DNA of 64,000 nt from an uncultured virus (IMG/VR IMGVR_UViG_3300027974_001778). Taxonomy: Duplodnaviria > Heunggongvirae > Uroviricota > Caudoviricetes. The position numbers were made by a program, and so were the translations under genes. Below the pieces are notes generated by a model. It was not told the DNA's origin and did not search any database. It saw only the letters and a program-made list of their open reading frames with translations. Positions 32,748 through 60,628 of the stretch are shown in pieces (position 1 is the stretch's first letter; each line of letters starts with the position of its first letter). The DNA is taken from positions 1 to 64,000 of IMG/VR virus record IMGVR_UViG_3300027974_001778, one strand, 5' to 3'.

Positions 32748-34421
32748 TTATGATTCTTTACGCAGCTCTCTGTTATAATGTTCGAATCTATCGTGTTCTG
32801 TTGGTGTCATAAGTAACAACCCAGGGTACAACTCATCTTTTTTAACTAACTGATACATATGACTCATCCATGTTTGTTCAAACGGATGTGCCCATGTTGT
32901 ATCTAAGAACATTTTTTTATTTCCTGGTCTACTAACAATCTGAGGCCAGTTACAATAATAAACGTCACCAACTGCATATGGAACACCCTTGTGGGATAAC
33001 ACAGCATTGAATTCTGTTTTTGGAGCATTAGGGTCAAGTCCCATTTCTGGAAGTCTTGGTTTACCTGGCCAAAACTCATCTCTTACATGTTGAGGAACAT
33101 TGTACCAAGCCCACTGAGTTCCATTGTCTCCATAAAACTCAGAATAATTCATCTTTAAAAAATCAAAATTTTCTTTCTTAATAATTTCTAAAGACTTTGT
33201 ATATAAATTGGAAACATATCGATTGAATCCATTCCTACAAGATGTCCCTTCATTTGGAAAGAAGAACATATCGTCCTCAAAGAATAAATAATAATCTAAA
33301 TCAGTTTTATCAAAATGTTCGGCAATCCATTGTCTACCACCACATATACCTAAATTATCTTTTTTAATATGTTCAAAATCAAATTCTTTACAAATTACCG
33401 AGTATTCCTCGGTAGTTGACAAATCACTTGAATTATCTAACAAAAACTTTTTAGTTTTTAGTATGTAGTCCTTATCATATGCCAACATAGAATCAATAAG
33501 AGTTCTAAATTGTTTTGGACTATTGAATGTAATAACATACAATCCAACTTTGTTTGGGTCCAAAGTATTGATAACTTTTTCTGTATTTTCACTTTTAACT
33601 TTGAGCTCATCGTTTTTTAAATTTTCAAAAAATGTTCCGATTAAACCATTTGATTCAATTTCAAAATAGTTAATCATATCCGAATGTTTATAAGCCATAA
33701 TACTGAAAATTGATTCTTCAGTACCCATGTATCCATCTTCTAATGTTGATTTAAGTAACCCGTAATAAATTCCGTTAATATCACTTATTGTATGTTTTGG
33801 TCCACCAAAAAATCCTCCTCTGGAAACTTTGGTAACCTTGGCACCAGCAAGAGCATTTAATTTACCATAATTAAATCCATGTATTTCAGTTTCAGCACCG
33901 TATGGAAAACTAACAAATGAAAATTTTGAAATATATTTTGATAAATTATTTAATACTTTATCATGAGTAAAGTATCCTGGATGAACTGTATTCGTTAAAC
34001 CACCATCAATCCAAAACATATATTCCGAATCAAATTGGTCCATTATTTTGGCGTCATGTAATAAAAAAACTTTAGACATAACCAATGGATTATAATTGTC
34101 TAATCTTGCTTGAGTAGATTCTTTTAACCAACCAACTTGATTATACCATTCTGGATTTGTTCTTATTTTTTGAATCATTGGGAAAAACTCTGAATTAGTA
34201 AACCAACTTAATGGTCTTACAATAAACTGAGTGGTTTTAGAACTTCTTCTTTCAAAAACAAATTCTTTTAATTCTTCGTCTCCAAAGATTATTAAGTTTT
34301 CTTCAACCTCTAAAAGTTTTTCAAACTTATCTAAATAATGTTGATAAGGTCTTGACCATCCTTCGGTCAGTTCACCTCTTCCAATATCCCAAATACCTGT
34401 TACTAATGTTATATTACTCAT
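32748..34421 (-). CDS. two-domain glycosyltransferase (HtrL/YibB-like plus GT-A)
   Basis: TLVTGIWDIGR, FWIDGG, GGFFGG, TEESIFS; second domain GGRQWIAEHF...FFEDD. Confidence 0.7.
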   Translation of the reverse strand: MSNITLVTGIWDIGRGELTEGWSRPYQHYLDKFEKLLEVEENLIIFGDEELKEFVFERRSSKTTQFIVRPLSWFTNSEFFPMIQKIRTNPEWYNQVGWLKESTQARLDNYNPLVMSKVFLLHDAKIMDQFDSEYMFWIDGGLTNTVHPGYFTHDKVLNNLSKYISKFSFVSFPYGAETEIHGFNYGKLNALAGAKVTKVSRGGFFGGPKHTISDINGIYYGLLKSTLEDGYMGTEESIFSIMAYKHSDMINYFEIESNGLIGTFFENLKNDELKVKSENTEKVINTLDPNKVGLYVITFNSPKQFRTLIDSMLAYDKDYILKTKKFLLDNSSDLSTTEEYSVICKEFDFEHIKKDNLGICGGRQWIAEHFDKTDLDYYLFFEDDMFFFPNEGTSCRNGFNRYVSNLYTKSLEIIKKENFDFLKMNYSEFYGDNGTQWAWYNVPQHVRDEFWPGKPRLPEMGLDPNAPKTEFNAVLSHKGVPYAVGDVYYCNWPQIVSRPGNKKMFLDTTWAHPFEQTWMSHMYQLVKKDELYPGLLLMTPTEHDRFEHYNRELRKES

Positions 34422-35295
34422 AAATTCTATTAAATTCTTCTAATATTCTATAGAAGCTTTTATTGTTTAAGAAGAGTTCCTCATCAACTCCTCTAGGTGC
34501 GTTGTCTCTACACCACCAAATATCGAAATGTTTTCTAACAAATAAATCTAAATGGTTAAAATACATTAAAGTCATAACGTGTTCTTCATGTGGTATACCC
34601 TTATCTTCAGTTATTATTTTTTGAACATAGTCTTCAAATAAATTAACAACCTCATCCCACTTATCTCTGTGTCCACCAAACATACCACCAATCACATGAA
34701 TACTTCTATCGTATTCAGTATACCATTTTCTATCAACAGTGCCCGACCAATAGTTTCTATCATTTTCTTTACCTAAAATTAAAAACTTATCACTTGTATC
34801 CTCAATAAGATTCTTTAAAAAATCATTATTAAACAAACTACTTTCATAATATCTTTGTTGAATATGTTCATTTGTTAGATACTTTAGGGGAATCAATCCA
34901 CAATGGGATAATCCAGCATCAATCCAATAATAATAATCATAAGATTTATCTTCGTTCCACCACCAATGAAACTTACTGTATTGAACCTCAACACATCTGT
35001 CTCCATTTTTAGTTTCCTCAATATTCTTATATTGATTAATCAAATCTTTAAATTTGGTATTTCCAATATCAAAAACCTGAAACTTAAGTTTGTCTTTTGG
35101 AATTGAGTATTCGACATAAAAAAACTCTTCTAATGAAGGTAATTCTCTATCTGAAGTGTAACATAGGAAATCCGCGTCTGTCATCTTTAAAAGTGACAAC
35201 AAACTATACCTATAATGTCCTCCTCTATTTGGTCTACCTCCAAATTCAGTACCATATAGGTCACTGTAAATTGATGTTATAAATTTAACTGACAT
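34414..35295 (-). CDS. HtrL/YibB-like glycosyltransferase
   Basis: YYWIDAGLSH, IGGMFGG, HEEHVMT; paralogous to the neighbour's N-domain. Confidence 0.65.
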   Translation of the reverse strand: MSVKFITSIYSDLYGTEFGGRPNRGGHYRYSLLSLLKMTDADFLCYTSDRELPSLEEFFYVEYSIPKDKLKFQVFDIGNTKFKDLINQYKNIEETKNGDRCVEVQYSKFHWWWNEDKSYDYYYWIDAGLSHCGLIPLKYLTNEHIQQRYYESSLFNNDFLKNLIEDTSDKFLILGKENDRNYWSGTVDRKWYTEYDRSIHVIGGMFGGHRDKWDEVVNLFEDYVQKIITEDKGIPHEEHVMTLMYFNHLDLFVRKHFDIWWCRDNAPRGVDEELFLNNKSFYRILEEFNRIYE

Positions 35296-36028
35296 AATAA
35301 AATTCTTTATGTTCCCCGTTATCTTTCATTTCTTGAACTTTATATTGGTCCATAAATTCTCTAGGGATTTTAGTTGGACACCACCTATTCCAATTATAGG
35401 TTTGCATGTACCAATTACTATACATACCTTCAGATATGTTTGAATAACCAGCTTTCTGTGGTGCTATTGGTAAAATTGGACAGTAACTTTGATGTTTCTG
35501 AACTATAAATTTAAAAGTATAATCATCTAAGGCGTGAAAATAATCTCCACTTGTAAATGCTGTTAACGCAATATCAAAAATAGAATCGTAGATAGATTCA
35601 TCATATATAACCATATTAGCTGCGTAGATACCACGAGCGTTTTCATCCGCTTCAGGTAAATTAGTCATATCTAATAATAAATTACATTTATCACTAACAT
35701 TAATATCTCTATTTTGAGTTGGCCCTAAATTAAACATTGCAAATTCTAAATCAGGACAAGTGTCTTCTATTTTTTGAAGTAGGTCTTTTGCGTAAGGCAT
35801 AACACCACAATCATCCTCAATAATCATTACACGAGGATAACTTCTTTCTTTTGCAATCTTAATAATTTCAAAAGTTGATTTGGTTATACCCATATAAGAA
35901 TTAGTATCTATCGCAGGAAATCTTTCAAAATCCCATCCGAGATAATTCATTTCCTTTGTAATTTCTTCTAACCTATCAGGTCGTCTATCCAAATTTACAA
36001 TAAACTTAGGGATTTCACTAAATTTCAT
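35285..36028 (-). CDS. glycosyltransferase family 25-like
   Basis: VNLDRRPDR, RFPAID, MIIEDD, SNI. Confidence 0.8.
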   Translation of the reverse strand: MKFSEIPKFIVNLDRRPDRLEEITKEMNYLGWDFERFPAIDTNSYMGITKSTFEIIKIAKERSYPRVMIIEDDCGVMPYAKDLLQKIEDTCPDLEFAMFNLGPTQNRDINVSDKCNLLLDMTNLPEADENARGIYAANMVIYDESIYDSIFDIALTAFTSGDYFHALDDYTFKFIVQKHQSYCPILPIAPQKAGYSNISEGMYSNWYMQTYNWNRWCPTKIPREFMDQYKVQEMKDNGEHKEFYYVS

Positions 36029-37293
36029 TAACTAACAACATTGTGATTTAATTGGCCAGTTATCCTATCACACCATCCTTTTGATTCTGAGTGAGGCCAA
36101 ACTACCCAGTAAGAAGGTAATTCTGTTGTTGGGAATTCTCTCCAAACTTTACAATACTTGTCAGGGTCTCTCATAAATCCTGCAATTTCATTCTTGTCGG
36201 CATCTTTTCTATATAATGTTTCATCCGAACCATTATGGAATGCAACAACCCAAAAATCATAATCAGTTTCAGTAACTTGTGAGTATCCAATATCAATACA
36301 ATGTTTGAATATAGTTGAGAATGAATTTTTCCAATCCTCTTCAGTTTCAAAATTATAAGGACTTGGTGGATATTGTTTGTCCAAACAATGTTTGTCTACC
36401 GCTCTTTTTTCAAATAATAAACCTGAATACTTCTCGTATTCTCTTAGAGTTCTAACAGTACCAAATCCGTATTGCCCATCATGGCCTACTTGAGTTTCAC
36501 CATCCATACCAAATAATTTTCTATTTGTTAAGTGAGAGTGAGTATTTTTTTGACCCCAAGTTTTATCATCATCCCATTGTTTTGTTCTACCTTTACGAGT
36601 GTACTCGTGATAAACTACAGGAATGTGTGGGTGGAATAAATCGTAACCCCATGTGTATGCTCTTGCTGCAATTGAAATCTCTTCACCATGAAAGTAGTAT
36701 TCAGGGTTATGTTGAACTTCTTTTGAAAACTCTCCTAATGTAAAACAGAAGTGAGCTGAATAGAATCTTGACGTAACAGGTTTTTTCATTTCTCTCCAAC
36801 CTGGAATTGTTTCAGGTAAGAAGAATACCGCACCTTCAGGAATGAATCTATCAAAGGCCATTCTCCAAGCATCTTGTGCTCTACCTGCTGGTTCGTTATC
36901 AGGGTCAAAGGAAGGTACATATCCCGTAAGTAGAGGTTTCTTGTACCCATCCTTTTGTAGACCCTTTATCATCTTGATTAGGATATCATCCCAATCTTTA
37001 ACAAATCTCATGTGAGAGTCAATTTGTAATGTATATGATTCTCCATCATAAAGTTGTTGTGTTAGGTTTCTTGCCCAACAAACTCCTTTTGCATCTTGAT
37101 ATGGAATGTCTAAGATTTTAAATCTTTTGTCGTCTCTATATTCATCTAAGTTATCAAACCCGTCTTCCTCTGCGAATTGTCTTGCAATTGAGAATACTAA
37201 ATTTTTAGGTTTCTTGGCGTTTTCCAACATGTCTTTTATTGTTGGTATTAACTGTGGGTCTCTGTAAGACGCAATTTGAACGAATATTTTCAT
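36028..37293 (-). CDS. GT60/Gnt1-type polypeptide alpha-GlcNAc transferase
   Basis: IFVQIASYRDP, GVCWARN, LQIDSHMRFVKDWD, FYSAHFCF, FHGEEISIAARAYTWGYDLFHP, VYHEY, GTVRTLREYE. Confidence 0.85.
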   Translation of the reverse strand: MKIFVQIASYRDPQLIPTIKDMLENAKKPKNLVFSIARQFAEEDGFDNLDEYRDDKRFKILDIPYQDAKGVCWARNLTQQLYDGESYTLQIDSHMRFVKDWDDILIKMIKGLQKDGYKKPLLTGYVPSFDPDNEPAGRAQDAWRMAFDRFIPEGAVFFLPETIPGWREMKKPVTSRFYSAHFCFTLGEFSKEVQHNPEYYFHGEEISIAARAYTWGYDLFHPHIPVVYHEYTRKGRTKQWDDDKTWGQKNTHSHLTNRKLFGMDGETQVGHDGQYGFGTVRTLREYEKYSGLLFEKRAVDKHCLDKQYPPSPYNFETEEDWKNSFSTIFKHCIDIGYSQVTETDYDFWVVAFHNGSDETLYRKDADKNEIAGFMRDPDKYCKVWREFPTTELPSYWVVWPHSESKGWCDRITGQLNHNVVS

Positions 37294-37317
37294 TAATGTC
37301 TATTTTGTATTAAAAAT

Positions 37318-37349
37318 AAAAAACCCTCCACAAAAGTAGAGGGTTTTTT
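37318..37349. terminator. intrinsic terminator (bidirectional form)
   Basis: aaaaaaccctc-N10-gagggtttttt. Confidence 0.75.
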
Positions 37350-37373
37350 GAAATATATTATTTTTAATTATTT

Positions 37374-38420
37374 TTAACAACCTGATGGGTCGACACCTGT
37401 AATCTCACCTGAACCACCTGTAACTAGATATACCGCAGTTCCATTTGAATAATAACCATTTATAACTGGTGTTGATAAACCTGAGTTGTAGTATAAGAAT
37501 TCTCCAACATTTGGACCAATTCCTCCTGATACAGTTCCGTAGATTGTGTTAGGTGCTCCACTGAAATCAATACAAGCTAAGTTTGCTGTACTACCTGTAC
37601 CTAAACTATATTGATAATAAGTTCTTGTTGGTGTGGGCGATGGTGTATGTGTTGGAGTTTGTGTATTTGTAGGTGTATTTGTTGGAGTAGGTGTTAAAGT
37701 AGGACAAAGAGTGTAAGAAAATGCAACTACATCACCATCAGATTGAATTTCAACTACGTAGTTGTTATATTCCAAATATCCTGCTCCTGCAGGAGATGAC
37801 CCGTCGATATTAAGACTGAAATTGTTTACTAAATCAAAACTAGAATTATTACCATACACATTGATTAATGAACCTCCAATATTTCCACAAGCATTTAAAC
37901 TAGTCGAACCAGAATAAACGCTACTAAATAATATACGAGACAATGTTGGTGTTGGAGTTGATGTTGATGATGGTGTATCTGTTGGTGTTTGACTTGGTGT
38001 AATACTTGGAGTTGGAGTTGGAGTTACAGCGGCAGTGCCTGTATTAGTTGGAGTCGGAGTCACAGCAGCAGTTCCTGTTGGTGTATTTGTAGGAGTTGAT
38101 GTATTAGTTGGTGTTTGAGTATTAGTTGGAGTCGGAGTCACAGCAGCAGTTCCTGTTGGAGTATTACTTGGAGTAACACTTGGAGTTGGTGTTGGAGTCG
38201 CGGTTTCACTAATTGGCGGGAAAGCTCCTTGATTAATCAAAGAAACTGAACTAGTATAAACAGGAGAAATTGTATATGTCCCGTTAATTACCCAAATATT
38301 CTTTGTTTGATTTGGATTTAATTCAACTTGATACTCCCAAAGAGAGTCATCACATCTTCTATAATTAAAGTTCACAATTGTGGAACCTGTATTTGTTAAG
38401 GTATATTTGCTACATGCCAT
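37374..38420 (-). CDS. modular mucin-like (Thr-Pro repeat) protein with Cys-containing beta domains; putative virion decoration/fibre
   Basis: 348 aa; three small domains joined by TPTPTNT linkers; TATTTAT upstream. Confidence 0.75.
   Translation of the reverse strand: MACSKYTLTNTGSTIVNFNYRRCDDSLWEYQVELNPNQTKNIWVINGTYTISPVYTSSVSLINQGAFPPISETATPTPTPSVTPSNTPTGTAAVTPTPTNTQTPTNTSTPTNTPTGTAAVTPTPTNTGTAAVTPTPTPSITPSQTPTDTPSSTSTPTPTLSRILFSSVYSGSTSLNACGNIGGSLINVYGNNSSFDLVNNFSLNIDGSSPAGAGYLEYNNYVVEIQSDGDVVAFSYTLCPTLTPTPTNTPTNTQTPTHTPSPTPTRTYYQYSLGTGSTANLACIDFSGAPNTIYGTVSGGIGPNVGEFLYYNSGLSTPVINGYYSNGTAVYLVTGGSGEITGVDPSGC
38041..38159. repeat. 41-bp exact direct repeat within a mucin-like linker
   Basis: gtattagttggagtcggagtcacagcagcagttcctgttgg at 38041-38081 and 38119-38159. 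Confidence 0.8.
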
Positions 38421-38489
38421 CTTAAATGTTATTTATCTAATAAATACTACGATTTTCTCTAATTTTATAAAGTAATCTTATTTTATTTC

Positions 38490-39599
38490 TTAACAAGGAT
38501 TTATGTATGTCACAAATCCATCTCCACTTACAATTATATAAGTACTAACACAAGTAACATCTGTGTCGCCACCAAGAACTGTGAAGCTATAATCAAACCC
38601 ACTACAATCTTTACCAACAAAAAGAGTGTCAGTAGTTCCGCCATAAAATGCATATCTTTTACATAAAGGACCTGACGGTGTTTGTGTTTGAGTTGGAGTG
38701 TTAGTTGAAGTTTGAGTGTTGGTTGGAGTTTGAGTATTGGTTGGAGTTTGAGTATTTGTTGAAGTTTGTGTGTTGGTTGGAGTTTGAGTATTAGTCGGAG
38801 TGTTAGTTGGCGTTTCAGTATTGGTTGGAGTGTTAGTTGGCGTTGATGTATTAGTTGGAGTTGGAGTACTTGTTGGTAATAAAGAACAAAGGGTGAAATA
38901 TCCAACTGTATTACCAGACAAATCAAGTTCAACCAAAACTCCTAAATAATTATAATATCCTGCAATATTTCCAATGATTCCGCCATTTGACGTATTAAAG
39001 AAATAACTATTTTGGTCAAAAATTTGTTCTACACCATATATAGAGGTGCTATCTGAACCGTTACACGCATCGTATGGACTTGTTCCTCCACTTAAACAAC
39101 TAAATTCATATAATATAACTCCTGAAGGAGTTACTGTTGGAGTTGCGGTTTGAGTTGGAGTCTGTGTTTGATTTGGAGTATTAGTTGGCGTTTCTGTATT
39201 AGTAGGAGTTAAGGTATTAGTAGGTGTTACTGTTGGTGTTTGTGTACTAGTTGTGGTGTTTGTAGGAGTTGTACTTGGAGTATTAGTTGGAGTTCCTGTA
39301 TTAGTTGGAGTATTAGTTGGAGTCACCGTTGGAGTTGATGTTACCGTTGGTGTTGGAGAAGTTTCAGTTGGTGTTGGTGTTGGTGTTGGTGTTGGTCCTA
39401 ATATCGATATACTATATGTGTAAGCATATAATGGAACGTAACAATTATATGTTCCGTAATAATAATCTGCAACATAACTAAATGGAAAAACTTGATTACC
39501 TAAGTCAACGGAAGTCCCTCCTGTTTGAGGAAGAAACGTAACTTCGGTTGTTAATCCGCTTAAACTTACACTTGAAATTAATACACCACAATCTGCCAT
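38490..39599 (-). CDS. modular mucin-like (Thr-Pro repeat) protein
   Basis: 369 aa; TPTNT/TQTPTN repeats around 38680-38875 and 39130-39395. Confidence 0.75.
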   Translation of the reverse strand: MADCGVLISSVSLSGLTTEVTFLPQTGGTSVDLGNQVFPFSYVADYYYGTYNCYVPLYAYTYSISILGPTPTPTPTPTETSPTPTVTSTPTVTPTNTPTNTGTPTNTPSTTPTNTTTSTQTPTVTPTNTLTPTNTETPTNTPNQTQTPTQTATPTVTPSGVILYEFSCLSGGTSPYDACNGSDSTSIYGVEQIFDQNSYFFNTSNGGIIGNIAGYYNYLGVLVELDLSGNTVGYFTLCSLLPTSTPTPTNTSTPTNTPTNTETPTNTPTNTQTPTNTQTSTNTQTPTNTQTPTNTQTSTNTPTQTQTPSGPLCKRYAFYGGTTDTLFVGKDCSGFDYSFTVLGGDTDVTCVSTYIIVSGDGFVTYINPC

Positions 39600-39632
39600 G
39601 TTAATAAATACTCAAAAATTTTATTTTATCTT

Positions 39633-40202
39633 TTAACATACCCCAACATTAATAATTTGATTACCGCTAAGTTGAATAAACTTAGCTCCGTTTGAGATTG
39701 TAAAATTGGCATTAATTGGAGGGATTGTTAAAGATTGGTTACCATATACATAATCACCCACTTCTAAATTTTCAAAAAGTTTTGGAATGTAGATTGTTAC
39801 GTTTGCTGGATTTGCAATCATATTAACAGATTGACAGACATTTTGATACCAACCACCTGTTCTTAAATTATACATATAAACTGTTGTTGGTGTAACCGTT
39901 GGTGTTGTTGTAGGTGTTGGAGTTGGAGAAGTTGAGGTTGGAGTCGGTGTTACAGAACTTTGAGTTGGTGTTGACGTAATGGTTGGAGTCGGTGTTGTTG
40001 AAGGACATAAGCCCACTAAAGATATTGTAAGAGGAGCTCCATAACTTTCAACAATTAAATCCTTAGCACAAACATATTGTACTTCTAACGGGTTAATTGG
40101 TGAAACACTAATTATATCCGTACAACCAGTCCATCTATAATATCCTTCTTCGACATTATTGTAGTTGGTTATAATAAAATAGTTACAGTCGGTTGTATAC
40201 AT
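39633..40202 (-). CDS. two-domain mucin-like protein
   Basis: 189 aa; Cys domain, TP linker, Cys domain. Confidence 0.72.
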   Translation of the reverse strand: MYTTDCNYFIITNYNNVEEGYYRWTGCTDIISVSPINPLEVQYVCAKDLIVESYGAPLTISLVGLCPSTTPTPTITSTPTQSSVTPTPTSTSPTPTPTTTPTVTPTTVYMYNLRTGGWYQNVCQSVNMIANPANVTIYIPKLFENLEVGDYVYGNQSLTIPPINANFTISNGAKFIQLSGNQIINVGVC

Positions 40203-40203
40203 T

Positions 40204-40947
40204 TTAACTTATTTTCAAATATCCATAATTAACCGTAACACCTGATACTGTATTGTTTTGAATACCGAATACAAATGTATTTGTTGATGTAACAACTGTT
40301 GAAGCGGTGGATATTGCACCTGCAGTTCCTATAATCTGTGCAGGTATACTTGTAAACAATATTGGACTACCCCCACCAGTATAATTCCATGCATACTGAA
40401 CACCAATTACTGGTACATTAGTATTACTAACACTTACTGTGGCATTATAAACTATTATACCATTTGGTATATTTCCAAGAACCCATAAGTTATACGTATC
40501 ATTAATATCAACTGTAAAACTGTAGTTATTAGTTCCTGGAGTCACCGTCCAACTACCTGTAAAACCAGATAAACCTGAAATTCCACTTGTACCAGAACTA
40601 CCTGAAGAGCCTGATGTTCCTGAAGTTCCACTTGAACCGCTTGTTCCTGAAGTTCCACTTGAGCCAGATGTTCCTGAAGAACCTGAGATTCCGCTAGTTC
40701 CTGATGAACCGCTTGTACCAGAACTACCATTAATTCCGCTAGTTCCTGATGTTCCGCTTGAACCCGATGAACCACTTGTTCCTGAGCTACCGTCTGTTCC
40801 GCTAGTTCCTGATGTTCCTGAAGAACCTATTAATGTTTCTTTTAAAACTTTAAAAGTTTCAGTTAAACCGCTATTATCCATAACAAGATAAGCACCCGTG
40901 GTGTCTCCTGTGTATAGTGGTAATGCACTGATTTTTGTATTTGCCAT
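40204..40947 (-). CDS. fibre-like protein with Gly-X-Y (SGT/SGS) repeats
   Basis: N-terminus MANTKISALP, about 29 Gly-every-third triplets, beta-rich C-domain. Confidence 0.75.
   Translation of the reverse strand: MANTKISALPLYTGDTTGAYLVMDNSGLTETFKVLKETLIGSSGTSGTSGTDGSSGTSGSSGSSGTSGTSGINGSSGTSGSSGTSGISGSSGTSGSSGTSGTSGSSGTSGTSGSSGSSGTSGISGLSGFTGSWTVTPGTNNYSFTVDINDTYNLWVLGNIPNGIIVYNATVSVSNTNVPVIGVQYAWNYTGGGSPILFTSIPAQIIGTAGAISTASTVVTSTNTFVFGIQNNTVSGVTVNYGYLKIS
40560..40827 (-). repeat. degenerate 9-bp coding tandem repeat (Ser-Gly-Thr/Ser)
   Basis: GSSGTSGTSGTDGSSGTSGSSGSSGTSG... in translation. Confidence 0.85.
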
Positions 40948-40960
40948 TTTAATCTATTTT

Positions 40961-43384
40961 TTATGTTATATCTATTTCAATATTATCGTTATTTTCTGCG
41001 GTAGCAACTGAATCATCTTCAAATAATAAGAAGTATGGTTCAGTGGGTGTTACTGTTGGAGTAGGCGTTGAAGTTGTTGTTGGAGTTAAGGTTTCAGTTG
41101 GAGTATTAGTTGGTGTTTCTGTAATTGTAGGAGTTGGAGTAGGTGTTTCTGTTTCAGTAGTAGTAGGAGTTGGAGTTTCTGTATTAGTTGGAGTATTAGT
41201 AGGCGTTTCTGTATTAGTTGGAGTTTGAGTTGGTGTATTAGTAGGAGTTTCCGTATTAGTAGGTGTGTTGGTAGGTGTTTCAGTTGGAGTTGGTGTTTGA
41301 GTTTCTGTTGCAGTTGGTGTTAATCCAACAGTAGCCGTAGAAGTTGGAGTTTCAGTGTTAGTAGGGGTTGATGTATTTGTTGGTGTTGATGTGGTAGTTG
41401 GAGTGTTAGTAGGGGTTGATGTTGGACATGGGTATAAAGAAGAAAACAAATCATTACATGGTACCATCAAATATCCTAAATCATTACACGGTACTGAGAT
41501 ATACAACAAGTCGTTGTTTGGAATAAAAATTCTACAATTAAGACAATTAGGGTCTAATAAATTATATCTATTCTTTAATAATTTAAAGTTATGTCTAATT
41601 TGAGAAGCGTTTAATGGTTCTGTATACATTCTAAATGCACTAACATCACCAATCATACTACCACCAAAAATTTCTTCTAACCTTATTTGAGTTGTAAGAC
41701 CTGAGTATTCAGTATGTTCTAAGTCATAATCTGTTAAACATTCAGGGTCTTGTTGATATGTAATACCACTTAACTCTGCGGGACACCCTGCAGAGAATGT
41801 TAAGTTGTCGTGAAGACCTTGAGTACCACCACCAACTGAAATATTATATCCAACTCCAATTTGTTTTTCTTTTTCAACATTAAGAAGTCTTGGAATTATT
41901 TCCTCGAAATTTTCAGCCACCAAAAATAATTTACCATTAACATAAAACTTAAGAGTACCTAATCTATATTTTTGTTCTTCGGTCCAAATATCAGTAAACG
42001 TAACAACCTCTGTTGAAGGTGGAATATATCCTGGGTCATGTGTTATTGGAGGTTCAACTAATGTTACACTTCTATTCTCTAATGTTGCAAAATATACATC
42101 ATCAACTAACAAACCAAGTCCTCCTTTTTCATATAGGTCACAGGTATCAAACCATTCCTTTCTTTGAAATACGGCATCTATTTGAACCCAATGTTCAACG
42201 TTAGGATAAGTAGTCCCACTACAATCATCAAATATTCCTCTCGTAGAACACCATTCGGTTACAGATGTTCCAGTGTGGTAAGTCAATCCTGTAAGACAAG
42301 TTCCACTATGTTCACACCCTCCTGTTATTCTATATGTCTTAACACATAGTCTTGGACTACCTGTATCTCCACTTAATCTTAAAGACAACGCATTTGACAC
42401 ACCATCATATAACGGGTCCTTTTCAGGATATTTGGCATGTGACTCACAATCACAAGGGCAACCACAAGTACAATGAGTTATCGTACCTCCCGATGGTTGA
42501 TACACCTGTAGACATTCAGATGAAGTATTCGCAGTACTTGCACATCCACAAGTATGCATACAAGTTAACCCTGAGGTCACTCTTGTATACCCTGTATCTT
42601 GTTTTGGTTCACCATCAGCATAGTGATAGAATTTGTTTTCGGCTCTCGCTCCCATGTAGAAAAAGGTTCCCTTATTATCAGGATACCTTGAATTAAGTCC
42701 GACAGAAGTATCTCCTGTCCATCTGTATCTTAACATAAATTCAGCTGTCCACCCTAACGATACTCTTTGAGGGAACACCTGATAGTCGTATCCTGGTAAC
42801 TTATAAAAACCTTGAAAAAACCCTCCGTTTAATCTGGCAAAATAACCCACAGGATTACCATCTGTGGCGTAATACATATCATAGGTATAAGAGTTGTCGT
42901 TCCACAATCTATTTTCTGAAGTTGTGAAACCAGTGATAGGGTGCATTTTCATTCTCCTATCATATTTATATCTACTAAATCTGTCTGACTCTGTTTCGTA
43001 AAGACCAGTTGTGATTTCAATAGTCTCACCTGACATGTTTTTAACAAGTCCATTGTCAATACCTGTCAAACCAACATCACATAACTCAGTAACAATGAGA
43101 CAAAAATTAGGGTCTGTATCAGTCGGATTCCAATAGTTTTCAGATACAATAGTATCATCATCAAATGTACACGAATTTGTTTGACATTTTGTAGTCCCTG
43201 AACTATTAAAGTCAAATTTAAAAGGCATTCTATTACCATTATCCTCACCAATTAACAATGGTGAAAAAATAACTTCTTGGTCGTAGTCTTTCTCATCTGA
43301 CGCGAGACAAATGTCCGTGACTTCGTTGACAGGTTTAATACCCCATCGTCTAAAATTATATTGATTTATATTTTGATATGCCAT
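40961..43384 (-). CDS. Cys-rich LamG/concanavalin-like structural protein with a long Thr-Pro-Glu mucin-like tail
   Basis: [39 protein letters not shown]; ~125-aa TPTNTETPT region at ~41045-41425. Confidence 0.7.
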
Positions 43385-46189: not shown

Positions 46190-47401
46190 ATGTCAAAAAT
46201 CAAAGTACTCGTTGTACCATCCGATAGAACAGGAGTTGGTAAGTTTAGGTCAGTAGACCCGCACATCTTTTTACAAAATCTCTATCCTGATGATTTTCAC
46301 GTCGATATCGTTTATGAACCACCATATGATGATGTTAACTATTGGACCCAATATCAAATAGTTTCATTCCATAGAAGTATTGGGCCCGATTTTGAAAAGG
46401 CCCATCGTCTTATTCAAATGTTAAACTCATTAGGAGTTATAACTGTTTGTGATATTGACGATTATTGGATGCCAGGTAAAGAACACCCAATCCACGATAT
46501 TATTAAAGTTCACAAGATTAATGAAAAAATTACTGCAAACTTAAAAGTTGCAAAGTATGTTACAACCACAACATCTTTATTTGCTGATGAAATTAGGAAA
46601 TTAAACAAGAATGTTATTGTATTTCCTAACGCAATTAATCCAAACGAATCTCAATTTAAAGAACCAACATTAGAGTCTGATAGACTTAGAATTGGTTGGT
46701 TAGGAGGTTCTTCCCACTTACATGATATTCAATTATTAGACCAAGGGTTTGGTAAGATTTTTTCTTTAAAAGATAAACTTCAATATGTGTTATGTGGATT
46801 TGACACTAGAGGTAGTGTAACTGAAATTAACGCACAAACAGGAGAACAAACTAAACGTAATATTCTTCCTCACGAAACTGTTTGGGCTCAGTATGAAAAA
46901 ATATTTACACAGAACTATTCAATTGTGTCTGATGAATATAAAAAACATTTGATTAACTATAATCAAGAAAGTTATACTGGTAATCCTGACGAACCATATT
47001 TGAGAGTTTGGACTAAACCTGTAACATCATACGCAAAAAATTATGCTAAATTTGACGTATCCTTATCACCAATTAAAAACACAATGTTTAATAGAATGAA
47101 GTCTCAGTTGAAAGTTATTGAAGCTGGATTTTATAAGAAAGCATTAATAGCATCTGACTTAGGTCCTTATACTATCGATTTAAAACATTGTATGAAAAAT
47201 GGTGAGTTTGTTGACGGTAATGCTATGTTAGTAAATGAAAATAGAAATCACGCTGATTGGCCAAAATTTATTGAGAAGTTGGTAAAAAATCCTAACTTAG
47301 CAAAAGATATGGGAGAAAGGTTATACGAAACCGTAAAGGACAAGTACGACCTTAATGTTGTAACAAAAACAAGAGCAGAATTTTATAAATCAATCATATA
47401 A
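46190..47401 (+). CDS. glycosyltransferase, GT-B (GT4-like)
   Basis: DIDDYW, IGWLGGSSHLHD, FNRMKSQLKVIEAG, ASDLGPY. Confidence 0.8.
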   Translation: MSKIKVLVVPSDRTGVGKFRSVDPHIFLQNLYPDDFHVDIVYEPPYDDVNYWTQYQIVSFHRSIGPDFEKAHRLIQMLNSLGVITVCDIDDYWMPGKEHPIHDIIKVHKINEKITANLKVAKYVTTTTSLFADEIRKLNKNVIVFPNAINPNESQFKEPTLESDRLRIGWLGGSSHLHDIQLLDQGFGKIFSLKDKLQYVLCGFDTRGSVTEINAQTGEQTKRNILPHETVWAQYEKIFTQNYSIVSDEYKKHLINYNQESYTGNPDEPYLRVWTKPVTSYAKNYAKFDVSLSPIKNTMFNRMKSQLKVIEAGFYKKALIASDLGPYTIDLKHCMKNGEFVDGNAMLVNENRNHADWPKFIEKLVKNPNLAKDMGERLYETVKDKYDLNVVTKTRAEFYKSII

Positions 47402-48723: not shown

Positions 48724-50352
48724 ATGATTACAATAGCATACTCAACAAGAGAGAGTAAACCAGAGTTTACAGAATATCTAAAAAAGAGTTCAGGTTTTAA
48801 AAAACTTGAGGTCATTGAAAAAGTTAACAACGGTGAGAAGTCTCTTGCCCAAGTTTATAATGAAGTCTTGTCAGAATCAAAGACTGACATTGTTGTGTTT
48901 TGTCATGATGATATATATTTTGATACAAATTCTTGGTATAACAAATTATTAAAACATTTTGAAAAAAGTGATTTTGGTATTCTTGGTATGGCAGGAACAA
49001 CTCAAATGCCAAGTAGTGGAATGTGGTGGGAAGACAGAAGAAAGATGGTTGGCATTGTTAACCATGAAAGTGATGGAAAGAAATGGGAATCAAAATACTC
49101 AGAGTCCTTAGGTAACTCAATTATAGAAACAGTTGTTGTTGACGGTCTATTCATTGCAATTGACAAAAGAAAAATTAAAAAGAATTTTAACGAAGACTTT
49201 AAAGGGTTTCACTTTTATGATATTCCTTTTTGTTTTGAAAACCATATTGAAGGAGTTAAAGTTGGTGTTATTACTAATATTAGAATTACTCACAGGTCAA
49301 TCGGTCAAACTAATGAACAATGGGAAGAGAACAGAAAATTGTTTGAATCAAAATACGCAAAAAATTTACCTGTTAAACTTAGCTACGACTCTCAAAGAAG
49401 AATTAAAGTTTTAATATCATCTTTGTTTTTTAGAACTTTTACTGGTTCAGAATTATATATTTTTGAACTTGCAAAGAATTTAATTAAACAAAACTGTGAT
49501 GTTACTGTTATGTCCCAAATAGGTGGGCCATTAACTGATATGGCAAAAAGATTAGGTATTAAATGTATATCATTTGAAGAAGCTCCTGGTTTTAAACTTG
49601 GTGATGGTAAATGGGGATTTAATACACCTGAAGGATTTAAAGTATCAACTGAAAATGTAATGTATCGTGTTTCTGAAGTTAACTTTGATATTATTCATAT
49701 GCAACATAAACCTGTTGCCGAAAGAATGATTCAGTTTTATCCTGAGATAGATAAAATCTATTCTATTCATTCTGAAGTTATAGAATTAGAAGACCCTATC
49801 AAACACGAATCAATTAAAAAGTATATTGCAATTAGACCTGAAATTAAGGACCACATTGTAGATAAATTTGAGATACCCGAAGAACAAATTGATATTATTT
49901 ATAATCCAATTGATAACGATAAATTCAAGCCAAAACCTTTAGTTAAAACAGAAAACTCTGTGTTATTTGTTGGTACCATAGATTACCTAAGAAAAGAGAC
50001 CATCTTAGATTTAATGGAAAGAACAAAAGAAGAAGGTAAAGAACTTTGGTTAGTAGGAGAAGATAAAGGAAATTATCTACAACAAGTTTTATTTGAACCT
50101 CATGTAAAATATTTCCCTCCTACTTGGTCTGTAGAAAATTTCATATATAGATGTGAAGAAACTGCAGGAATTCAATTAGGAAGAACAACTATCGAAGGAT
50201 GGATGTGCGGAAAACCGAGTTGGATTTATAAAGTAGATTCAGGTGGATTTATTTTATCAAAAGAAAAATTCGAACCTCCTGTAGACGTAGAGAAATACTT
50301 TTCCTCTAACGTCGCAAAACAAATAAAAGAAGAGTATCAAAAAATCCTTTAA
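48724..50352 (+). CDS. bifunctional glycosyltransferase (GT-A plus GT-B)
   Basis: VFCHDDI, VDGLFI, FHFYD; second domain TGSELY, IYNPID, GRTTIEGWMCGKP. Confidence 0.8.
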   Translation: MITIAYSTRESKPEFTEYLKKSSGFKKLEVIEKVNNGEKSLAQVYNEVLSESKTDIVVFCHDDIYFDTNSWYNKLLKHFEKSDFGILGMAGTTQMPSSGMWWEDRRKMVGIVNHESDGKKWESKYSESLGNSIIETVVVDGLFIAIDKRKIKKNFNEDFKGFHFYDIPFCFENHIEGVKVGVITNIRITHRSIGQTNEQWEENRKLFESKYAKNLPVKLSYDSQRRIKVLISSLFFRTFTGSELYIFELAKNLIKQNCDVTVMSQIGGPLTDMAKRLGIKCISFEEAPGFKLGDGKWGFNTPEGFKVSTENVMYRVSEVNFDIIHMQHKPVAERMIQFYPEIDKIYSIHSEVIELEDPIKHESIKKYIAIRPEIKDHIVDKFEIPEEQIDIIYNPIDNDKFKPKPLVKTENSVLFVGTIDYLRKETILDLMERTKEEGKELWLVGEDKGNYLQQVLFEPHVKYFPPTWSVENFIYRCEETAGIQLGRTTIEGWMCGKPSWIYKVDSGGFILSKEKFEPPVDVEKYFSSNVAKQIKEEYQKIL

Positions 50353-52312: not shown

Positions 52313-53037
52313 TAAAATTTGTTTGTTGTTTTTGGAACGCAGAAAATTACATTAAAAATTGCATTAGAACTTTAAAATCCCAAAAAGATATAGAGTTTGA
52401 AGTTTATTTAATTGATGATATATCAACAGATAATACGGTTGAATTGGTTAAAAATTTAATAGAAGGAGACAATAGGTTTAAACTTATAGTTAATACAGAA
52501 AAAAAATTTAAACTAAAAAATTTAGATGAATTAATATCAACTTTTGATGATGAAGATATTGTAATTGAAATTGATGGTGATGATTTTTTACTTAACAGTG
52601 ATGTTGTTGGAGATATAAGAAAAGTTTATTCTAATAATAAAGTTTGGTTAACTAACGGTTCATTTATGTACTCCGATGGAAATCCAGGGTTTTCATCGGA
52701 ATGTAATCCAGATACTGTAAGAAAAGATACATTTAGATTCTCACATTTAAGAACATGGAAAACATTTTTATGGAAATCAATTCCTCAAGATTATTTACGG
52801 GACGATGATGGAAGTTATTTCAAATCAGCGGCAGATGTTGCATACACATTTTCATTATTAGAATTGGCAGGCAAAGAGAATTATAGATTTTTACCAAACC
52901 TATATTATGTTTATAACGCGGGTTCCCCGTACAATGACCATAAGGTCGGAAGTGCAACAGGTGGAGGTCACCAAGAACAAGAAAGATGTTCAAACATAAT
53001 AAGAAATAAAACCAAATTAAAAAAATTAATTAGATGA
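52309..53037 (+). CDS. glycosyltransferase family 2
   Basis: IDDISTDNT, IDGDDFL, SHLRTW. Confidence 0.85.
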   Translation: MIKFVCCFWNAENYIKNCIRTLKSQKDIEFEVYLIDDISTDNTVELVKNLIEGDNRFKLIVNTEKKFKLKNLDELISTFDDEDIVIEIDGDDFLLNSDVVGDIRKVYSNNKVWLTNGSFMYSDGNPGFSSECNPDTVRKDTFRFSHLRTWKTFLWKSIPQDYLRDDDGSYFKSAADVAYTFSLLELAGKENYRFLPNLYYVYNAGSPYNDHKVGSATGGGHQEQERCSNIIRNKTKLKKLIR

Positions 53038-56402: not shown

Positions 56403-56406
56403 TATT

Positions 56407-60017: not shown

Positions 60018-60018
60018 T

Positions 60019-60627: not shown

Positions 60628-60628
60628 T

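What the first reader, a model, noticed from the sequence alone, without database searches (positions are those of the whole stretch)
32748..43384. Candidate phage-encoded mucin-type protein O-glycosylation system: GT60 initiating enzyme beside its Thr/Ser-rich substrates
Seen: five consecutive minus-strand genes (37374-43384) encode proteins with long Thr-Pro or Ser-Gly-Thr repeats. They are followed on the same strand by a GT60/Gnt1-like enzyme, a GT25-like enzyme and two HtrL/YibB-like transferases. Known: GT60 enzymes add alpha-GlcNAc to Hyp, Thr or Ser of proteins (Dictyostelium Gnt1/Gnt2, trypanosomatid mucin-initiating OGNT), and TP-rich tracts are the typical acceptors. Inference: the phage initiates and extends O-glycans on its own virion appendages. 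This would give a mucin-like coat of stiff glycosylated linkers displaying small adhesin domains. No signal peptides are evident, so the modification would occur in the cytoplasm.
Basis: partly seen in the sequence, partly recalled or inferred. Interest (0 to 1): 0.88.

Follow-up and report, generated by a model that had tools for sequence, protein, structure and literature searches.

The report
Phage sugar-coating kit beside Thr-Pro proteins
An uncultured freshwater jumbo phage carries a relative of the enzymes that start mucin-type sugar chains right behind its own threonine-proline-rich proteins, and the same pairing recurs in other phages and even on bacterial injection-machine spikes, so these tracts are probably sugar-coated, although no sugar has been measured.

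Summary
Five minus-strand genes (37374-43384) encode four Thr/Pro-tract proteins and one collagen-like protein. They are followed by a clear GT60 enzyme (PF11397, E 2.7e-66) and three translationally coupled transferase-like genes.

I could not measure sugars, so the enzyme-substrate link rests on comparative evidence:
- 77 of 80 close relatives keep Thr/Pro genes directly upstream of GT60.
- GT60 genes only 35-37% identical to the XacN1 query (about 38% to the window's) also have one.
- In five Burkholderiales genomes, GT60 sits inside a type VI secretion cluster. Only the VgrG spike beside it has a (Thr/Ser-Pro)n tail (5 of 5 against 0 of 20 paralogues).
- crAss-muzzle-like Thr/Pro proteins flank GT60 in two further loci.
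- The cultured relative XacN1 has periodate-Schiff-positive virion proteins.

Against: a terminator-like hairpin separates the two gene sets. About half of the XacN1-like loci lack a nearby Thr/Pro gene. Virion location and an adhesin role are unshown.

Earlier follow-ups in this scan reached the same reading on at least eight related phage genomes. The type VI link was not among them. My literature searches found no report of either pairing.

The parts
40961..43384 (-). 807-aa protein. N-terminal 647 residues are Cys-rich (27 Cys in the whole protein) and of unknown fold. Residues 648-784 form a Thr/Pro tract, followed by a 23-residue acidic tail.
   Evidence: No Pfam or PHROG match. AF2 model failed, pLDDT 34. 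ESM Atlas: viral hypothetical clusters plus one Laminin_G_3 lead (score 0.94; family on 36% of members). The N-domain is conserved in 36 related loci.
40204..40947 (-). 247-aa collagen-like (Gly-Ser/Thr-Ser) protein, fibre-like.
   Evidence: Pfam Collagen E 4.3e-14. 20 PHROG families, mostly tail fibre; the matches rest on the repeat.
39633..40202 (-). 189-aa two-domain protein: a 64-residue beta domain, a 45-residue Thr/Pro linker and an 80-residue beta domain.
   Evidence: In 33 sequences, six Cys and linker positions T70 P71 T72 T76 T87 T94 T100 P101 T104 are invariant. AF2 pLDDT 72 with a disordered linker. No clear fold match.
38490..39599 (-). 369-aa beads-on-a-string protein: three small domains joined by two Thr/Pro linkers.
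37374..38420 (-). 348-aa beads-on-a-string protein: three small domains joined by Thr/Pro linkers.
   Evidence: Exact-match contigs occur in lake RNA libraries; this is weak evidence.
37318..37349 (-). Terminator-like hairpin (14 pairs, 5 G-C, T-run) in the gap between the Thr/Pro genes and GT60.
   Evidence: It is a pattern match only; the number of such sites found in the region was no higher than in shuffles.
36028..37293 (-). GT60 (PF11397) glycosyltransferase. Catalytic part about 1-300 with invariant D92-S93-H94, plus a conserved extra C-terminal domain of about 110 residues.
   Evidence: No membrane span. No solved relative found by sequence.
35285..36028 (-). 247-aa GT25-like protein (N-terminal motif only). 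Its start overlaps the GT60 stop by 1 nt.
   Evidence: PF01755 E 2.7e-8 on residues 7-44. phrog_2835 glucosyltransferase E 5.6e-5. No tblastn relative near distant GT60 genes (0 of 19 viral, 0 of 79 bacterial loci).
34414..35295 (-). 293-aa protein of unknown family, possibly a distant HtrL-like transferase. Overlaps its neighbours by 11 and 8 nt.
   Evidence: No family match. BLASTP E 0.001 to the 557-aa protein. Relatives lie beside GT60 in 7 of 19 distant viral and 5 of 79 bacterial loci.
32748..34421 (-). 557-aa protein: an HtrL_YibB domain (3-252) plus a C-terminal half with weak GT2-like signals. It is the most faithful companion of GT60.
   Evidence: PF09612 E 3.8e-20. GT2 E 0.021. Relatives (37-63% identity in the 10 example loci that show one) lie within 10 kb of GT60 in 15 of 19 distant viral and 32 of 79 bacterial loci.
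46190..47401 (+). 403-aa glycosyltransferase. First gene of a second sugar cluster on the other strand.
   Evidence: phrog_7162 E 1.3e-41.
48724..50352 (+). 542-aa fusion of GT2-like and GT4-like domains.
   Evidence: PF13712 E 8.1e-33 and PF13439 E 2.4e-9.
51152..54649 (+). Nucleotide-sugar dehydrogenase, GT2, GT11 and GT10 (fucosyltransferase families).
   Evidence: TIGR03026 above its cut-off.
55731..62658 (+). Methyltransferase, NeuD/PglB/VioB-type sugar acetyltransferase, DegT/PseC-like aminotransferase, Zn-dehydrogenase and NAD-dependent epimerase/dehydratase: synthesis of modified nucleotide sugars.

Best explanation
The phage glycosylates its own Thr/Pro-tract proteins in the host cytoplasm.

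Proposed steps:
- The soluble GT60 enzyme is a GT-A transferase with a D-x-H metal site. It puts a first sugar, most likely alpha-HexNAc from a UDP-sugar, on Thr of the TPT(N/Q/E)TPT linkers. Hydroxyproline is a less likely acceptor.
- The three genes coupled to it extend the chain: the GT25-like protein, the 293-aa protein and the 557-aa HtrL-type/GT2-like protein.
- The plus-strand cluster at 46-63 kb supplies modified nucleotide sugars and further transferases, including fucosyltransferase families.
- The products would be stiff, hydrophilic, protease-resistant stalks. They would hold small Cys-bounded beta domains away from the particle, on fibre-like proteins that vary greatly between related phages.

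Shown: gene content, family membership, gene order, and recurrent co-occurrence of GT60 with Thr/Ser-Pro tracts.

Inferred: the acceptor, the sugar, the virion location and the benefit.
For: (1) Family.
- PF11397 at 224.9 bits.
- D92-S93-H94 is invariant in 12 sequences of 39-91% identity.
- Per the review passage seen, GT60 was recognised from polypeptide alpha-GlcNAc transferases of Dictyostelium and T. cruzi, acting on Ser/Thr-rich mucin domains (PMC8724618, passage; PMC3769586, abstract).

(2) Close relatives.
- 77 of 80 viral loci (GT60 86-100% identical) have at least one Thr/Pro-rich ORF, in nearly all cases directly upstream on the same strand.
- The other 3 loci have under 600 nt of upstream flank.

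(3) Distant relatives.
- 8 of 18 further viral loci, and XacN1 itself, have a Thr/Pro-rich ORF within 10 kb.
- Two of them have it directly upstream of a GT60 only 35-37% identical to the XacN1 query, about 38% to the window's.

(4) Bacteria.
- 14 of 44 full-length GT60 loci have a Thr/Pro-rich ORF of at least 150 aa with Thr+Pro >= 0.67. Random 20-kb windows of four of the five genomes examined give 0 of 20 (one-sided Fisher p 0.0024).
- With the laxer criterion the counts are 20 of 44 against 2 of 20.

(5) Type VI secretion.
- 17 of 79 bacterial loci carry TssF within 10 kb of GT60.
- In five genomes the GT60-adjacent VgrG has a 54-170-residue Thr/Ser-Pro tail. None of 20 other full-length VgrG paralogues has one (5 of 5 against 0 of 20, p 1.9e-5).
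- 9 of the 10 GT60-adjacent VgrGs captured have such a tail.
- An acidobacterial VgrG with an internal TP tract lies 7 kb from a GT60 that stands alone, outside the other well-supported groups, in the quick tree.

(6) Two loci place Thr/Pro-rich proteins with the crAss muzzle C-terminal domain (E 2e-16 and 1e-19) on both sides of GT60 plus a GT32-like enzyme.

(7) In the complete relative G001, the other Thr/Pro cluster (295-303 kb) abuts GT9 and methyltransferase-GT4-GT9 genes.

(8) The linker Thr/Pro positions of the 189-aa protein are invariant in 33 sequences of 53-94% identity. The DNA repeats are degenerate, 65-88% matches in all but two short arrays.

(9) XacN1 virions show at least two periodate-Schiff-positive bands. 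Its authors proposed that its two transferases, one being the GT60 homologue ORF334, make them (PMC5852040 text and Suppl. Fig. S4 legend).

(10) Missing machinery and solubility.
- The Pfam and PHROG scans of the record's larger ORFs named no lipid-carrier initiating transferase, flippase, polymerase or oligosaccharyltransferase in the 127 kb.
- No hydropathy window reaches a membrane-span value in the nine proteins of the run or the five plus-strand transferases scanned.
Against: - No glycan has been measured on any of these proteins.
- A strong terminator-like hairpin separates the Thr/Pro genes from GT60, so they need not be one transcript.
- 10 of 18 XacN1-like and other distant viral loci, and 53 of 79 bacterial loci (many on short contigs), show no Thr/Pro-rich ORF within 10 kb.
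- In G001, 5 of 8 Thr/Pro-rich ORFs are far from GT60.
- The positive cases are partly inherited together: the five VgrG cases are orthologous. The p values therefore overstate independence.
- Thr/Pro linkers are common unmodified spacers in many secreted proteins.
- Virion membership of the Thr/Pro proteins is not shown, and the XacN1 glycoprotein bands were not identified.
- The record is 41% complete by CheckV, so absence of genes in it is weak evidence.
Confidence: 0.6

Rival explanations
1. Neighbours without an enzyme-substrate link. The Thr/Pro tracts are plain unmodified spacers of hypervariable fibre-like proteins. The GT60 cassette glycosylates something else made by the phage, for example capsid, sheath or another protein.
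For: - Terminator-like hairpin between the two gene sets.
- 10 of 18 distant viral loci lack a nearby Thr/Pro ORF.
- The XacN1 cassette is conserved with its nearest Thr/Pro tract about 9 kb away in a 3313-aa protein.
- The XacN1 glycoprotein bands are unidentified.
Against: - Enrichment in bacteria against random windows.
- Only the GT60-adjacent VgrG carries the tract, 5 of 5 against 0 of 20.
- Thr/Pro genes flank GT60 in several separate branches of the GT60 quick tree.
- Per the review passage seen, the GT60 family was defined on enzymes that act on Ser/Thr-rich polypeptide tracts.
Confidence: 0.18
2. Host-surface remodelling. The transferases and nucleotide-sugar enzymes alter the host's lipopolysaccharide or capsule during infection, for example to block superinfection. 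This is how jumbo-phage transferase clusters have been read.
For: - Iyer and Aravind read jumbo-phage glycosyltransferase clusters as capsular/O-antigen modification systems (PMC7824862, passages).
- GT25, HtrL/YibB and GT9 are families annotated from LPS loci.
- The 46-63 kb cluster resembles O-antigen sugar synthesis.
Against: - No initiating phosphoglycosyl transferase, flippase, polymerase or ligase was found in 127 kb, though the record is incomplete.
- All transferases appear soluble.
- This reading does not explain GT60 inside type VI secretion clusters beside a Thr/Pro-tailed VgrG.
Confidence: 0.12
3. DNA hypermodification. The transferases glycosylate hydroxymethylated bases of the phage genome.
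For: - Phage transferases related to LPS enzymes glycosylate 5hmC (bioRxiv 10.1101/2023.12.21.572611, abstract).
- A thymidylate-synthase-family gene is present in three complete relatives and in XacN1.
- A weak TET-associated glycosyltransferase match on the C-terminal half of the 557-aa protein (E 0.086, below cut-off).
Against: - No Tet/JBP match in five records. That search rang in no control either, so it is uninformative.
- No cytosine methyltransferase was seen in 127 kb.
- None of the GT60 literature seen describes a member acting on DNA.
- The GT60 genes in bacterial type VI clusters have no such substrate.
Confidence: 0.05

Closest known systems
Protist GT60 polypeptide alpha-GlcNAc transferases (Dictyostelium, Trypanosoma cruzi), which start mucin-type O-glycans
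   Same: Same Pfam/CAZy family. Acceptors are Thr-rich mucin-like tracts (PMC8724618 passage; PMC3769586 abstract). Some related phage loci carry PTVT-type repeats.
   Different: - The protist enzymes are described as Golgi enzymes of the secretory pathway (recalled). This one has no membrane span and would act in a bacterial cytoplasm.
- It carries an extra conserved C-terminal domain of about 110 residues.
- Its activity is untested.
Skp1 hydroxyproline glycosylation (prolyl hydroxylase plus cytoplasmic GT60 Gnt1) of Dictyostelium and Toxoplasma (recalled; also named in earlier scan note e1-5340380)
   Same: A soluble cytoplasmic GT60 acting on a protein.
   Different: - Skp1 has a single Hyp site on one protein, not long repeats.
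- No prolyl hydroxylase lies beside GT60 here.
- PF13640 oxygenases occur in the complete relative only 8-9 kb from the second Thr/Pro cluster.
Mycobacteriophage virion glycosylation (Freeman et al. 2023, Cell Host Microbe; not held; details recalled; cited in PMC12582341)
   Same: Phage-encoded transferases modify the phage's own structural proteins.
   Different: - Other transferase families and other acceptors (capsid and tail-tube C-terminal extensions, recalled).
- Actinobacterial hosts.
- No GT60 and no long Thr/Pro stalks, as far as I recall.
Xanthomonas jumbo phage XacN1 (PMC5852040)
   Same: - GT60 homologue ORF334 (45.6% identity).
- Homologues of the 293-aa and 557-aa proteins in the same run.
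- Virion glycoprotein bands by Schiff stain.
   Different: - A carbamoyltransferase is inserted in the cassette.
- No Thr/Pro genes lie directly upstream. The nearest tract is in the 3313-aa ORF325 beside a GT9 gene.
Chlorovirus PBCV-1 capsid glycosylation by virus-encoded enzymes (as cited in PMC5852040)
   Same: Virus-encoded, cytoplasmic glycosylation of a virion protein independent of host secretory machinery.
   Different: A eukaryotic virus with other transferase families. The PBCV-1 glycans are N-linked on the capsid protein (recalled).
Metazoan GT27 polypeptide GalNAc transferases
   Same: A related GT-A family that starts mucin-type chains. GT60 is described as differing mainly by lacking the C-terminal ricin-like domain (PMC8724618 passage).
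   Different: A different family and sugar. The phage enzyme's own extra C-terminal domain has no recognised family.

Membership tests
CAZy GT60 / Pfam PF11397 (GlcNAc) | Match to the family profile above its curated cut-off | tested here: met
   224.9 bits against cut-off 21, E 2.7e-66, two stretches covering profile positions 2-44 and 96-351.
CAZy GT60 / Pfam PF11397 (GlcNAc) | GT-A type D-x-D/D-x-H metal-binding motif conserved | tested here: met
   Q-x-D92-S93-H94-x-R-F is invariant in 12 sequences of 39-91% identity.
CAZy GT60 / Pfam PF11397 (GlcNAc) | Transfers alpha-GlcNAc from UDP-GlcNAc to Thr, Ser or Hyp of a polypeptide | not testable with these tools
   Needs an enzyme assay or glycoproteomics.
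Mucin-type O-glycosylation system (initiating enzyme plus Ser/Thr/Pro-rich acceptor tracts) | Long Ser/Thr/Pro-rich repeat tracts in candidate acceptors | tested here: met
   439 linker residues, 45% Thr and 23% Pro. Degenerate 18/30/36/54-nt repeats.
Mucin-type O-glycosylation system (initiating enzyme plus Ser/Thr/Pro-rich acceptor tracts) | Enzyme and acceptor linked beyond one lineage | tested here: met
   Counts are in the full report; relatedness was not corrected for.
Mucin-type O-glycosylation system (initiating enzyme plus Ser/Thr/Pro-rich acceptor tracts) | Dense O-glycans present on the tracts | not testable with these tools
   No measurement exists for this lineage. XacN1 bands are unidentified.
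Phage virion glycosylation (mycobacteriophage type) | The modified proteins are virion components | tested here: inconclusive
   - Collagen-like gene with tail-fibre PHROG matches that rest on the repeat.
- No structural-family match for the four Thr/Pro proteins.
- No clear fold match.
GT25 (PF01755) | Match over the catalytic domain | tested here: inconclusive
   The score is above the cut-off (34.4 against 24), but only profile positions 3-40 of 199 are matched.
HtrL_YibB (PF09612 / TIGR02192) | Profile match above cut-off, 557-aa protein | tested here: met
   Pfam 73 bits against 24.1, residues 3-252. The NCBIfam equivalog cut-off is not reached (80.8 against 264.9). It is therefore a family member but not a YibB equivalent.
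HtrL_YibB (PF09612 / TIGR02192) | Profile match, 293-aa protein | tested here: not met
   No match at E <= 1 or in NCBIfam. There is only a 49-residue BLASTP alignment, E 0.001, to the 557-aa protein.

The most novel reading that the evidence does not exclude
GT60, often with the 557-aa HtrL-type partner, is a widespread prokaryotic module. It O-glycosylates Thr/Ser-Pro tracts in the cytoplasm on parts of virions and phage-tail-like machines:
- jumbo-phage beads-on-a-string proteins;
- crAss-muzzle-like tail proteins;
- the C-terminal tails of type VI secretion VgrG spikes in Burkholderiales and an acidobacterium.

This would be the first mucin-type modification of a secretion-system spike. 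It would also give a prokaryotic and viral counterpart, possibly a relative by descent, of the protist pathway that starts mucin-type glycans. In the quick tree the type VI enzymes nest inside the XacN1-like jumbo-phage clade, which hints at exchange between phages and these clusters.
Probability: 0.35. Interest if true: 0.85.

Novelty: new variant of a known kind. Interest (0 to 1): 0.72.

Why it matters
If true, tailed phages and bacterial injection machines carry mucin-like glycoprotein stalks. These would be made by a soluble cytoplasmic enzyme of a family so far characterised only in protists.

- It would add a new class of bacterial and phage protein O-glycosylation that needs no lipid carrier and no export.
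- It would bear on how phages resist proteases, stick to or slip through polysaccharide layers, and vary their surface.
- It would give glyco-engineering a simple enzyme-plus-tag pair.
- The lineage is abundant in lakes. More than 7,000 protein clusters match the enzyme at E <= 1e-10. Near-identical DNA occurs in 17 DNA runs, most labelled freshwater metagenome; all 20 holder runs, RNA included, come from 13 studies.
- The type VI secretion link is directly testable in cultured bacteria.

Tried and rejected
- AF2 of the 807-aa protein's N-terminal 647 residues, with 21 aligned relatives, gave pLDDT 34. It was unusable and I ran no fold search on it.
- The 189-aa model had no Foldseek match in the PDB at E <= 0.001. 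The best VIA-align Z was 5.3, against a spore-appendage jelly-roll, which is within the range of common small beta folds. I therefore claim no fold or adhesin assignment.
- PDB sequence searches found nothing: GT60 alone, the GT60 profile and the 557-aa protein.
- tblastn of the 807-aa N-domain against cultured phages gave no match.
- Megablast of the 12-kb region against phages gave only a 146-nt hit at 75% identity.
- Pfam at E <= 1 on eight excised small domains gave nothing usable.
- ESM Atlas on the GT60 C-terminal domain gave no usable hit.
- The Tet_JBP search found no match anywhere, controls included, so it is uninformative.
- Complex prediction (GT60 with the 189-aa protein) met a full queue twice and was then declared unavailable. 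Nothing was folded.
- Metatranscriptome contigs: exact-match pieces from three lake RNA libraries lie on the Thr/Pro genes, GT60 and the 557-aa gene. DNA carry-over cannot be excluded, and contigs cannot show transcript ends, so I make no claim on expression level or operon structure. Uncovered parts are not interpretable.
- The careful tree did not finish in the time allowed, so the quick IQ-TREE result was used.
- The scan's notes held nothing for this genome by place.
- Freeman et al. 2023 is not held.

Full report
**What the window is.**
- The window is the first 64 kb of a 127,475-bp IMG/VR virus record, rated 41% complete. GC is about 33%.
- Complete relatives are 317-326 kb, so this is a jumbo phage.
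- It has T4-like sheath, tube and baseplate genes at 2-23 kb and a family-B DNA polymerase at 29460-32258.
- Beyond the window it has a gp23-type capsid protein, prohead protease, portal and terminase.
- Near-identical DNA occurs in 17 DNA runs, most labelled freshwater metagenome. All 20 holder runs, RNA included, come from 13 studies.

**The observation.**
- Nine consecutive minus-strand genes are as described.
- Four proteins (807, 189, 369 and 348 aa) hold tracts with 70-80% Thr+Pro in 30 residues.
- They are built as beads on a string: Cys-bounded beta domains of 60-80 residues, joined by linkers that start right after a Cys-Pro.
- The 439 linker residues are 45% Thr, 23% Pro and 8% Ser, with 88 TP against 3 SP dipeptides.
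- At DNA level the tracts are degenerate repeats of 18, 30, 36 or 54 nt, 65-88% matches in all but two short arrays.
- The fifth protein (247 aa) is collagen-like.
- Downstream lie four genes:
  - a GT60 enzyme (PF11397, 224.9 bits; phrog_24687, E 5e-166);
  - a protein with only the N-terminal GT25 motif;
  - a 293-aa protein without any family match;
  - a 557-aa protein with an HtrL_YibB domain and a weakly GT2-like C-terminal half.
- The four enzyme genes overlap by 1, 11 and 8 nt (coordinates).
- The 80-nt gap before GT60 holds a 14-pair terminator-like hairpin.
- No hydropathy window reaches a membrane-span value in the nine proteins of the run or in the five plus-strand transferases scanned.

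- The plus strand from 46190 to 62658 holds a second sugar cluster. It contains:
  - a transferase (phrog_7162);
  - a GT2-like/GT4 fusion;
  - a nucleotide-sugar dehydrogenase;
  - GT2, GT11 and GT10;
  - a methyltransferase;
  - a NeuD/PglB/VioB-type acetyltransferase;
  - a PseC/DegT-like aminotransferase;
  - a Zn-dehydrogenase;
  - an epimerase/dehydratase.
- Beyond the window the record adds:
  - another GT2;
  - a carbamoyltransferase;
  - a fifth Thr/Pro-rich ORF (91168-91986) in the head module;
  - 1.4 kb from that ORF, an Asp/Arg-hydroxylase-like oxygenase overlapping a sulfotransferase gene.
- The Pfam and PHROG scans of the record's larger ORFs named no lipid-carrier initiating transferase, flippase, polymerase or oligosaccharyltransferase. 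The record is incomplete.

**Close relatives.**
- The enzyme has 7,211 database relatives at E <= 1e-10 among the 8,000 candidates scored.
- Of 80 viral loci with GT60 86-100% identical, 77 have at least one Thr/Pro-rich ORF, in nearly all cases directly upstream on the same strand. The other three have 77-588 nt of upstream flank.
- These genes vary greatly in size, from 93 to 1785 aa.
- In the 76 loci where the script located the GT60 ORF, 205 Thr/Pro ORFs gave 530 globular segments in 38 clusters.
- One domain family of about 78 residues occurs 218 times in 70 loci, and four times in the window.
- The N-terminal domains are conserved gene by gene.
- In 33 versions of the 189-aa protein (53-94% identity), six Cys and nine linker Thr/Pro positions are invariant.
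- In the complete relative G001 (326,291 bp), 8 of 494 ORFs of at least 80 aa are Thr/Pro-rich:
  - three lie beside GT60;
  - one lies in the head module;
  - four lie at 295-303 kb, next to a GT9 gene, a 1210-aa methyltransferase-GT4-GT9 protein and an FkbM methyltransferase;
  - two PF13640 oxygenases lie 8-9 kb from that last cluster.

**Distant phages.**
- Among cultured phages only four of 50,697 records hold a relative: XacN1, Xoo-sp13, CM1 and RAS14, at 43-48% identity.
- XacN1 keeps the cassette: GT60, then an inserted carbamoyltransferase, then homologues of the 293-aa and 557-aa proteins.
- Its nearest Thr/Pro tract is in the 3313-aa ORF325, about 9 kb away beside a GT9 gene.
- Of 18 further viral loci found with the XacN1 enzyme, 8 have a Thr/Pro-rich ORF within 10 kb.
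  - Two of these (L099, L101) have it directly upstream of a GT60 only 35-37% identical to the XacN1 query, about 38% to the window's.
  - Ten have none. One of the ten (L093) is cut just where its identical sisters carry the ORF.
- The XacN1 paper reports at least two periodate-Schiff-positive virion bands and proposes that ORF328 and ORF334 make them. The bands were not identified (PMC5852040: text passages and the Suppl. Fig. S4 legend seen).

**Bacteria.**
- A profile scan of one genome per species returned 390 relatives, of which the best 79 loci were kept (36-72% identity).
- 26 of the 79 have a Thr/Pro-rich ORF within 10 kb.
- Among the 44 loci of at least 19 kb, the count is 20, against 2 of 20 arbitrary 20-kb windows from four of the five genomes examined. 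Both control hits are ORFs of 88-94 aa at the threshold.
- With a stricter rule (ORF of at least 150 aa, Thr+Pro at least 0.67), it is 14 of 44 against 0 of 20 (one-sided Fisher p 0.0024).
- Pfam on seven loci showed what these proteins are:
  - In Ralstonia and Paraherbaspirillum, GT60 (one or two copies) lies inside a type VI secretion cluster with TssE, TssF, TssG, TssA, a fimbrial-like protein, DotU/OmpA and, in the Ralstonia locus, TagF and TssM. The Thr/Pro protein is VgrG.
  - In a Saprospiraceae chromosome contig and a short contig binned as Planctomycetaceae, Thr/Pro-rich proteins with the crAss muzzle C-terminal domain flank GT60 plus a GT32-like enzyme.
  - In Jiulongibacter, a Thr/Pro protein sits between two GT60 genes. 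A carbamoyltransferase and a homologue of the 557-aa protein follow.
  - In a Gemmatimonadaceae MAG (L139), a Thr/Pro-rich protein with a PqqD domain precedes GT60 and an HtrL-type protein. A second MAG (L134) has a like-sized Thr/Pro ORF in the same place.
  - In Chthoniobacter, a Pro/Thr-rich Laminin_G_3 protein precedes two GT60 genes.

**The VgrG control.**
- TssF lies within 10 kb of GT60 in 17 of 79 loci.
- Of 10 Burkholderiales loci in which the adjacent VgrG was captured, 9 have a C-terminal tail of 54-338 residues of (TP)n, (TPEP)n, (PPPTE)n, (EEPPPS)n or (TEEPPQ)n. One (L173) does not.
- In five genomes I listed all VgrG matches: 33 in all, 25 of them full-length. I fetched the 20 full-length paralogues that are not beside GT60.
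- None of the 20 has such a tract: Thr+Pro at most 0.37 and Pro at most 0.23 in 30 residues. All five GT60-adjacent ones do (Fisher p 1.9e-5).
- The five are orthologues, so this is not five independent events. The repeat units differ, however, which argues for maintained selection rather than a frozen accident.
- An acidobacterial VgrG with an internal TP tract lies 7 kb from a GT60 that stands alone in the tree.
- A 2026 review of type VI accessory factors contains no word beginning 'glycosyl' (PMC13584744, term search).

**Tree.**
- The tree is a quick IQ-TREE run on 107 rows. The careful search did not finish.
- I kept every eighth of the 80 close loci, dropped one locus with under 280 aligned residues, and used the first 320 residues of each match.
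- It places loci with a Thr/Pro neighbour in at least eight separate groups.
- It nests the 17 type VI enzymes (SH-aLRT 96) inside the XacN1-like phage clade (99).
- The root is arbitrary, so I name no donor.

**Partner enzyme.**
- Homologues of the 557-aa protein (37-63% identity in the 10 example loci that show one) lie within 10 kb of GT60 in 15 of 19 distant viral and 32 of 79 bacterial loci.
- The GT25-like protein has none by tblastn (0 of 19, 0 of 79).
- The type VI clusters examined have GT60 without this partner.

**Reading.**
- The best-supported mechanism is cytoplasmic O-glycosylation of the Thr/Pro tracts. GT60 starts the chain, and the coupled genes and the second cluster extend it.
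- The sugar, the site (Thr or hydroxyproline), the virion location and the benefit are inferred.
- The rivals are mere linkage, host-glycan remodelling (PMC7824862 passages) and DNA glycosylation (bioRxiv 10.1101/2023.12.21.572611 abstract; a ThyA-family gene in relatives). They are weighed in their own sections.

**Novelty.**
- Searches of the held library found no report of a phage or bacterial GT60 acting on Thr/Pro proteins, nor of VgrG glycosylation. The searches were:
  - phage/virion/O-glycosylation;
  - GT60 with bacteriophage;
  - jumbo phage/glycoprotein;
  - VgrG/glycosyltransferase;
  - PF11397;
  - VgrG/proline-rich.
- Most subscription journals are not held.
- Within this scan, at least eight earlier follow-ups on related phage genomes reached the same reading. 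None held both 'VgrG' and 'GT60'.

**Weak extra.** Exact-match contigs from three lake RNA libraries lie on the Thr/Pro genes, GT60 and the 557-aa gene. DNA carry-over cannot be excluded.

Noticed in passing
L199:4356-20553, L150:3420-16383 (also L165, L169, L171, L172, L180, L198, L202): In Burkholderiales, a GT60 gene lies inside a type VI secretion cluster. The VgrG of that cluster, and none of 20 other VgrG paralogues in five genomes, ends in a long Thr/Ser-Pro repeat tail.
   Followed up: yes
L149:2307-15864 and L148:614-9262: Thr/Pro-rich proteins with crAss muzzle domains lie on both sides of a GT60 gene and a GT32-like (Gly_transf_sug/Caps_synth) gene. One locus is on a 3-Mb Saprospiraceae contig.
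   Followed up: partly
L139:9230-12969 (also L134:8510-9235): In a Gemmatimonadaceae MAG (L139), a 241-aa Thr/Pro-rich protein with a PqqD (peptide-recognition) domain sits directly upstream of GT60 and an HtrL-type protein; L134 has a like-sized Thr/Pro ORF in the same place. This hints at a peptide-modification use of the same enzyme pair.
   Followed up: no
G000 record 91168-94564 (outside the window; L103:9168-12564): A fifth Thr/Pro-rich ORF lies in the head/packaging module. About 1.4 kb away, an Asp/Arg-hydroxylase-like oxygenase gene overlaps a Sulfotransfer_2 gene.
   Followed up: partly
window 26463-28001: A 512-aa phage protein carries both Fe/Mn superoxide dismutase domains (E 4.5e-40 and 6.5e-22) in its first half.
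   Followed up: no
window 2043-9824 and 10137-15197: Two giant ORFs (2593 and 1686 aa) beside the baseplate genes have no Pfam or PHROG match.
   Followed up: no
window 50352-51155: An NAD synthase gene sits in the middle of the plus-strand sugar cluster.
   Followed up: no
window 45026-45499: A 157-aa protein with a sub-threshold WYL match ends in a short [12 protein letters not shown] tail, on the strand opposite the Thr/Pro genes.
   Followed up: no
L085:10001-11716: In one jumbo-phage relative, the conserved C-terminal domain of the GT60 enzyme is present twice in tandem.
   Followed up: no
tree: The GT60 genes of type VI clusters form one clade nested within the XacN1-like jumbo-phage GT60 clade. 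The tree is quick and arbitrarily rooted.
   Followed up: partly
window 40421-40821: The collagen-like repeat draws about 100-fold excess depth and many false joints from metagenome contigs of other organisms. Read-based measures there are unreliable.
   Followed up: no
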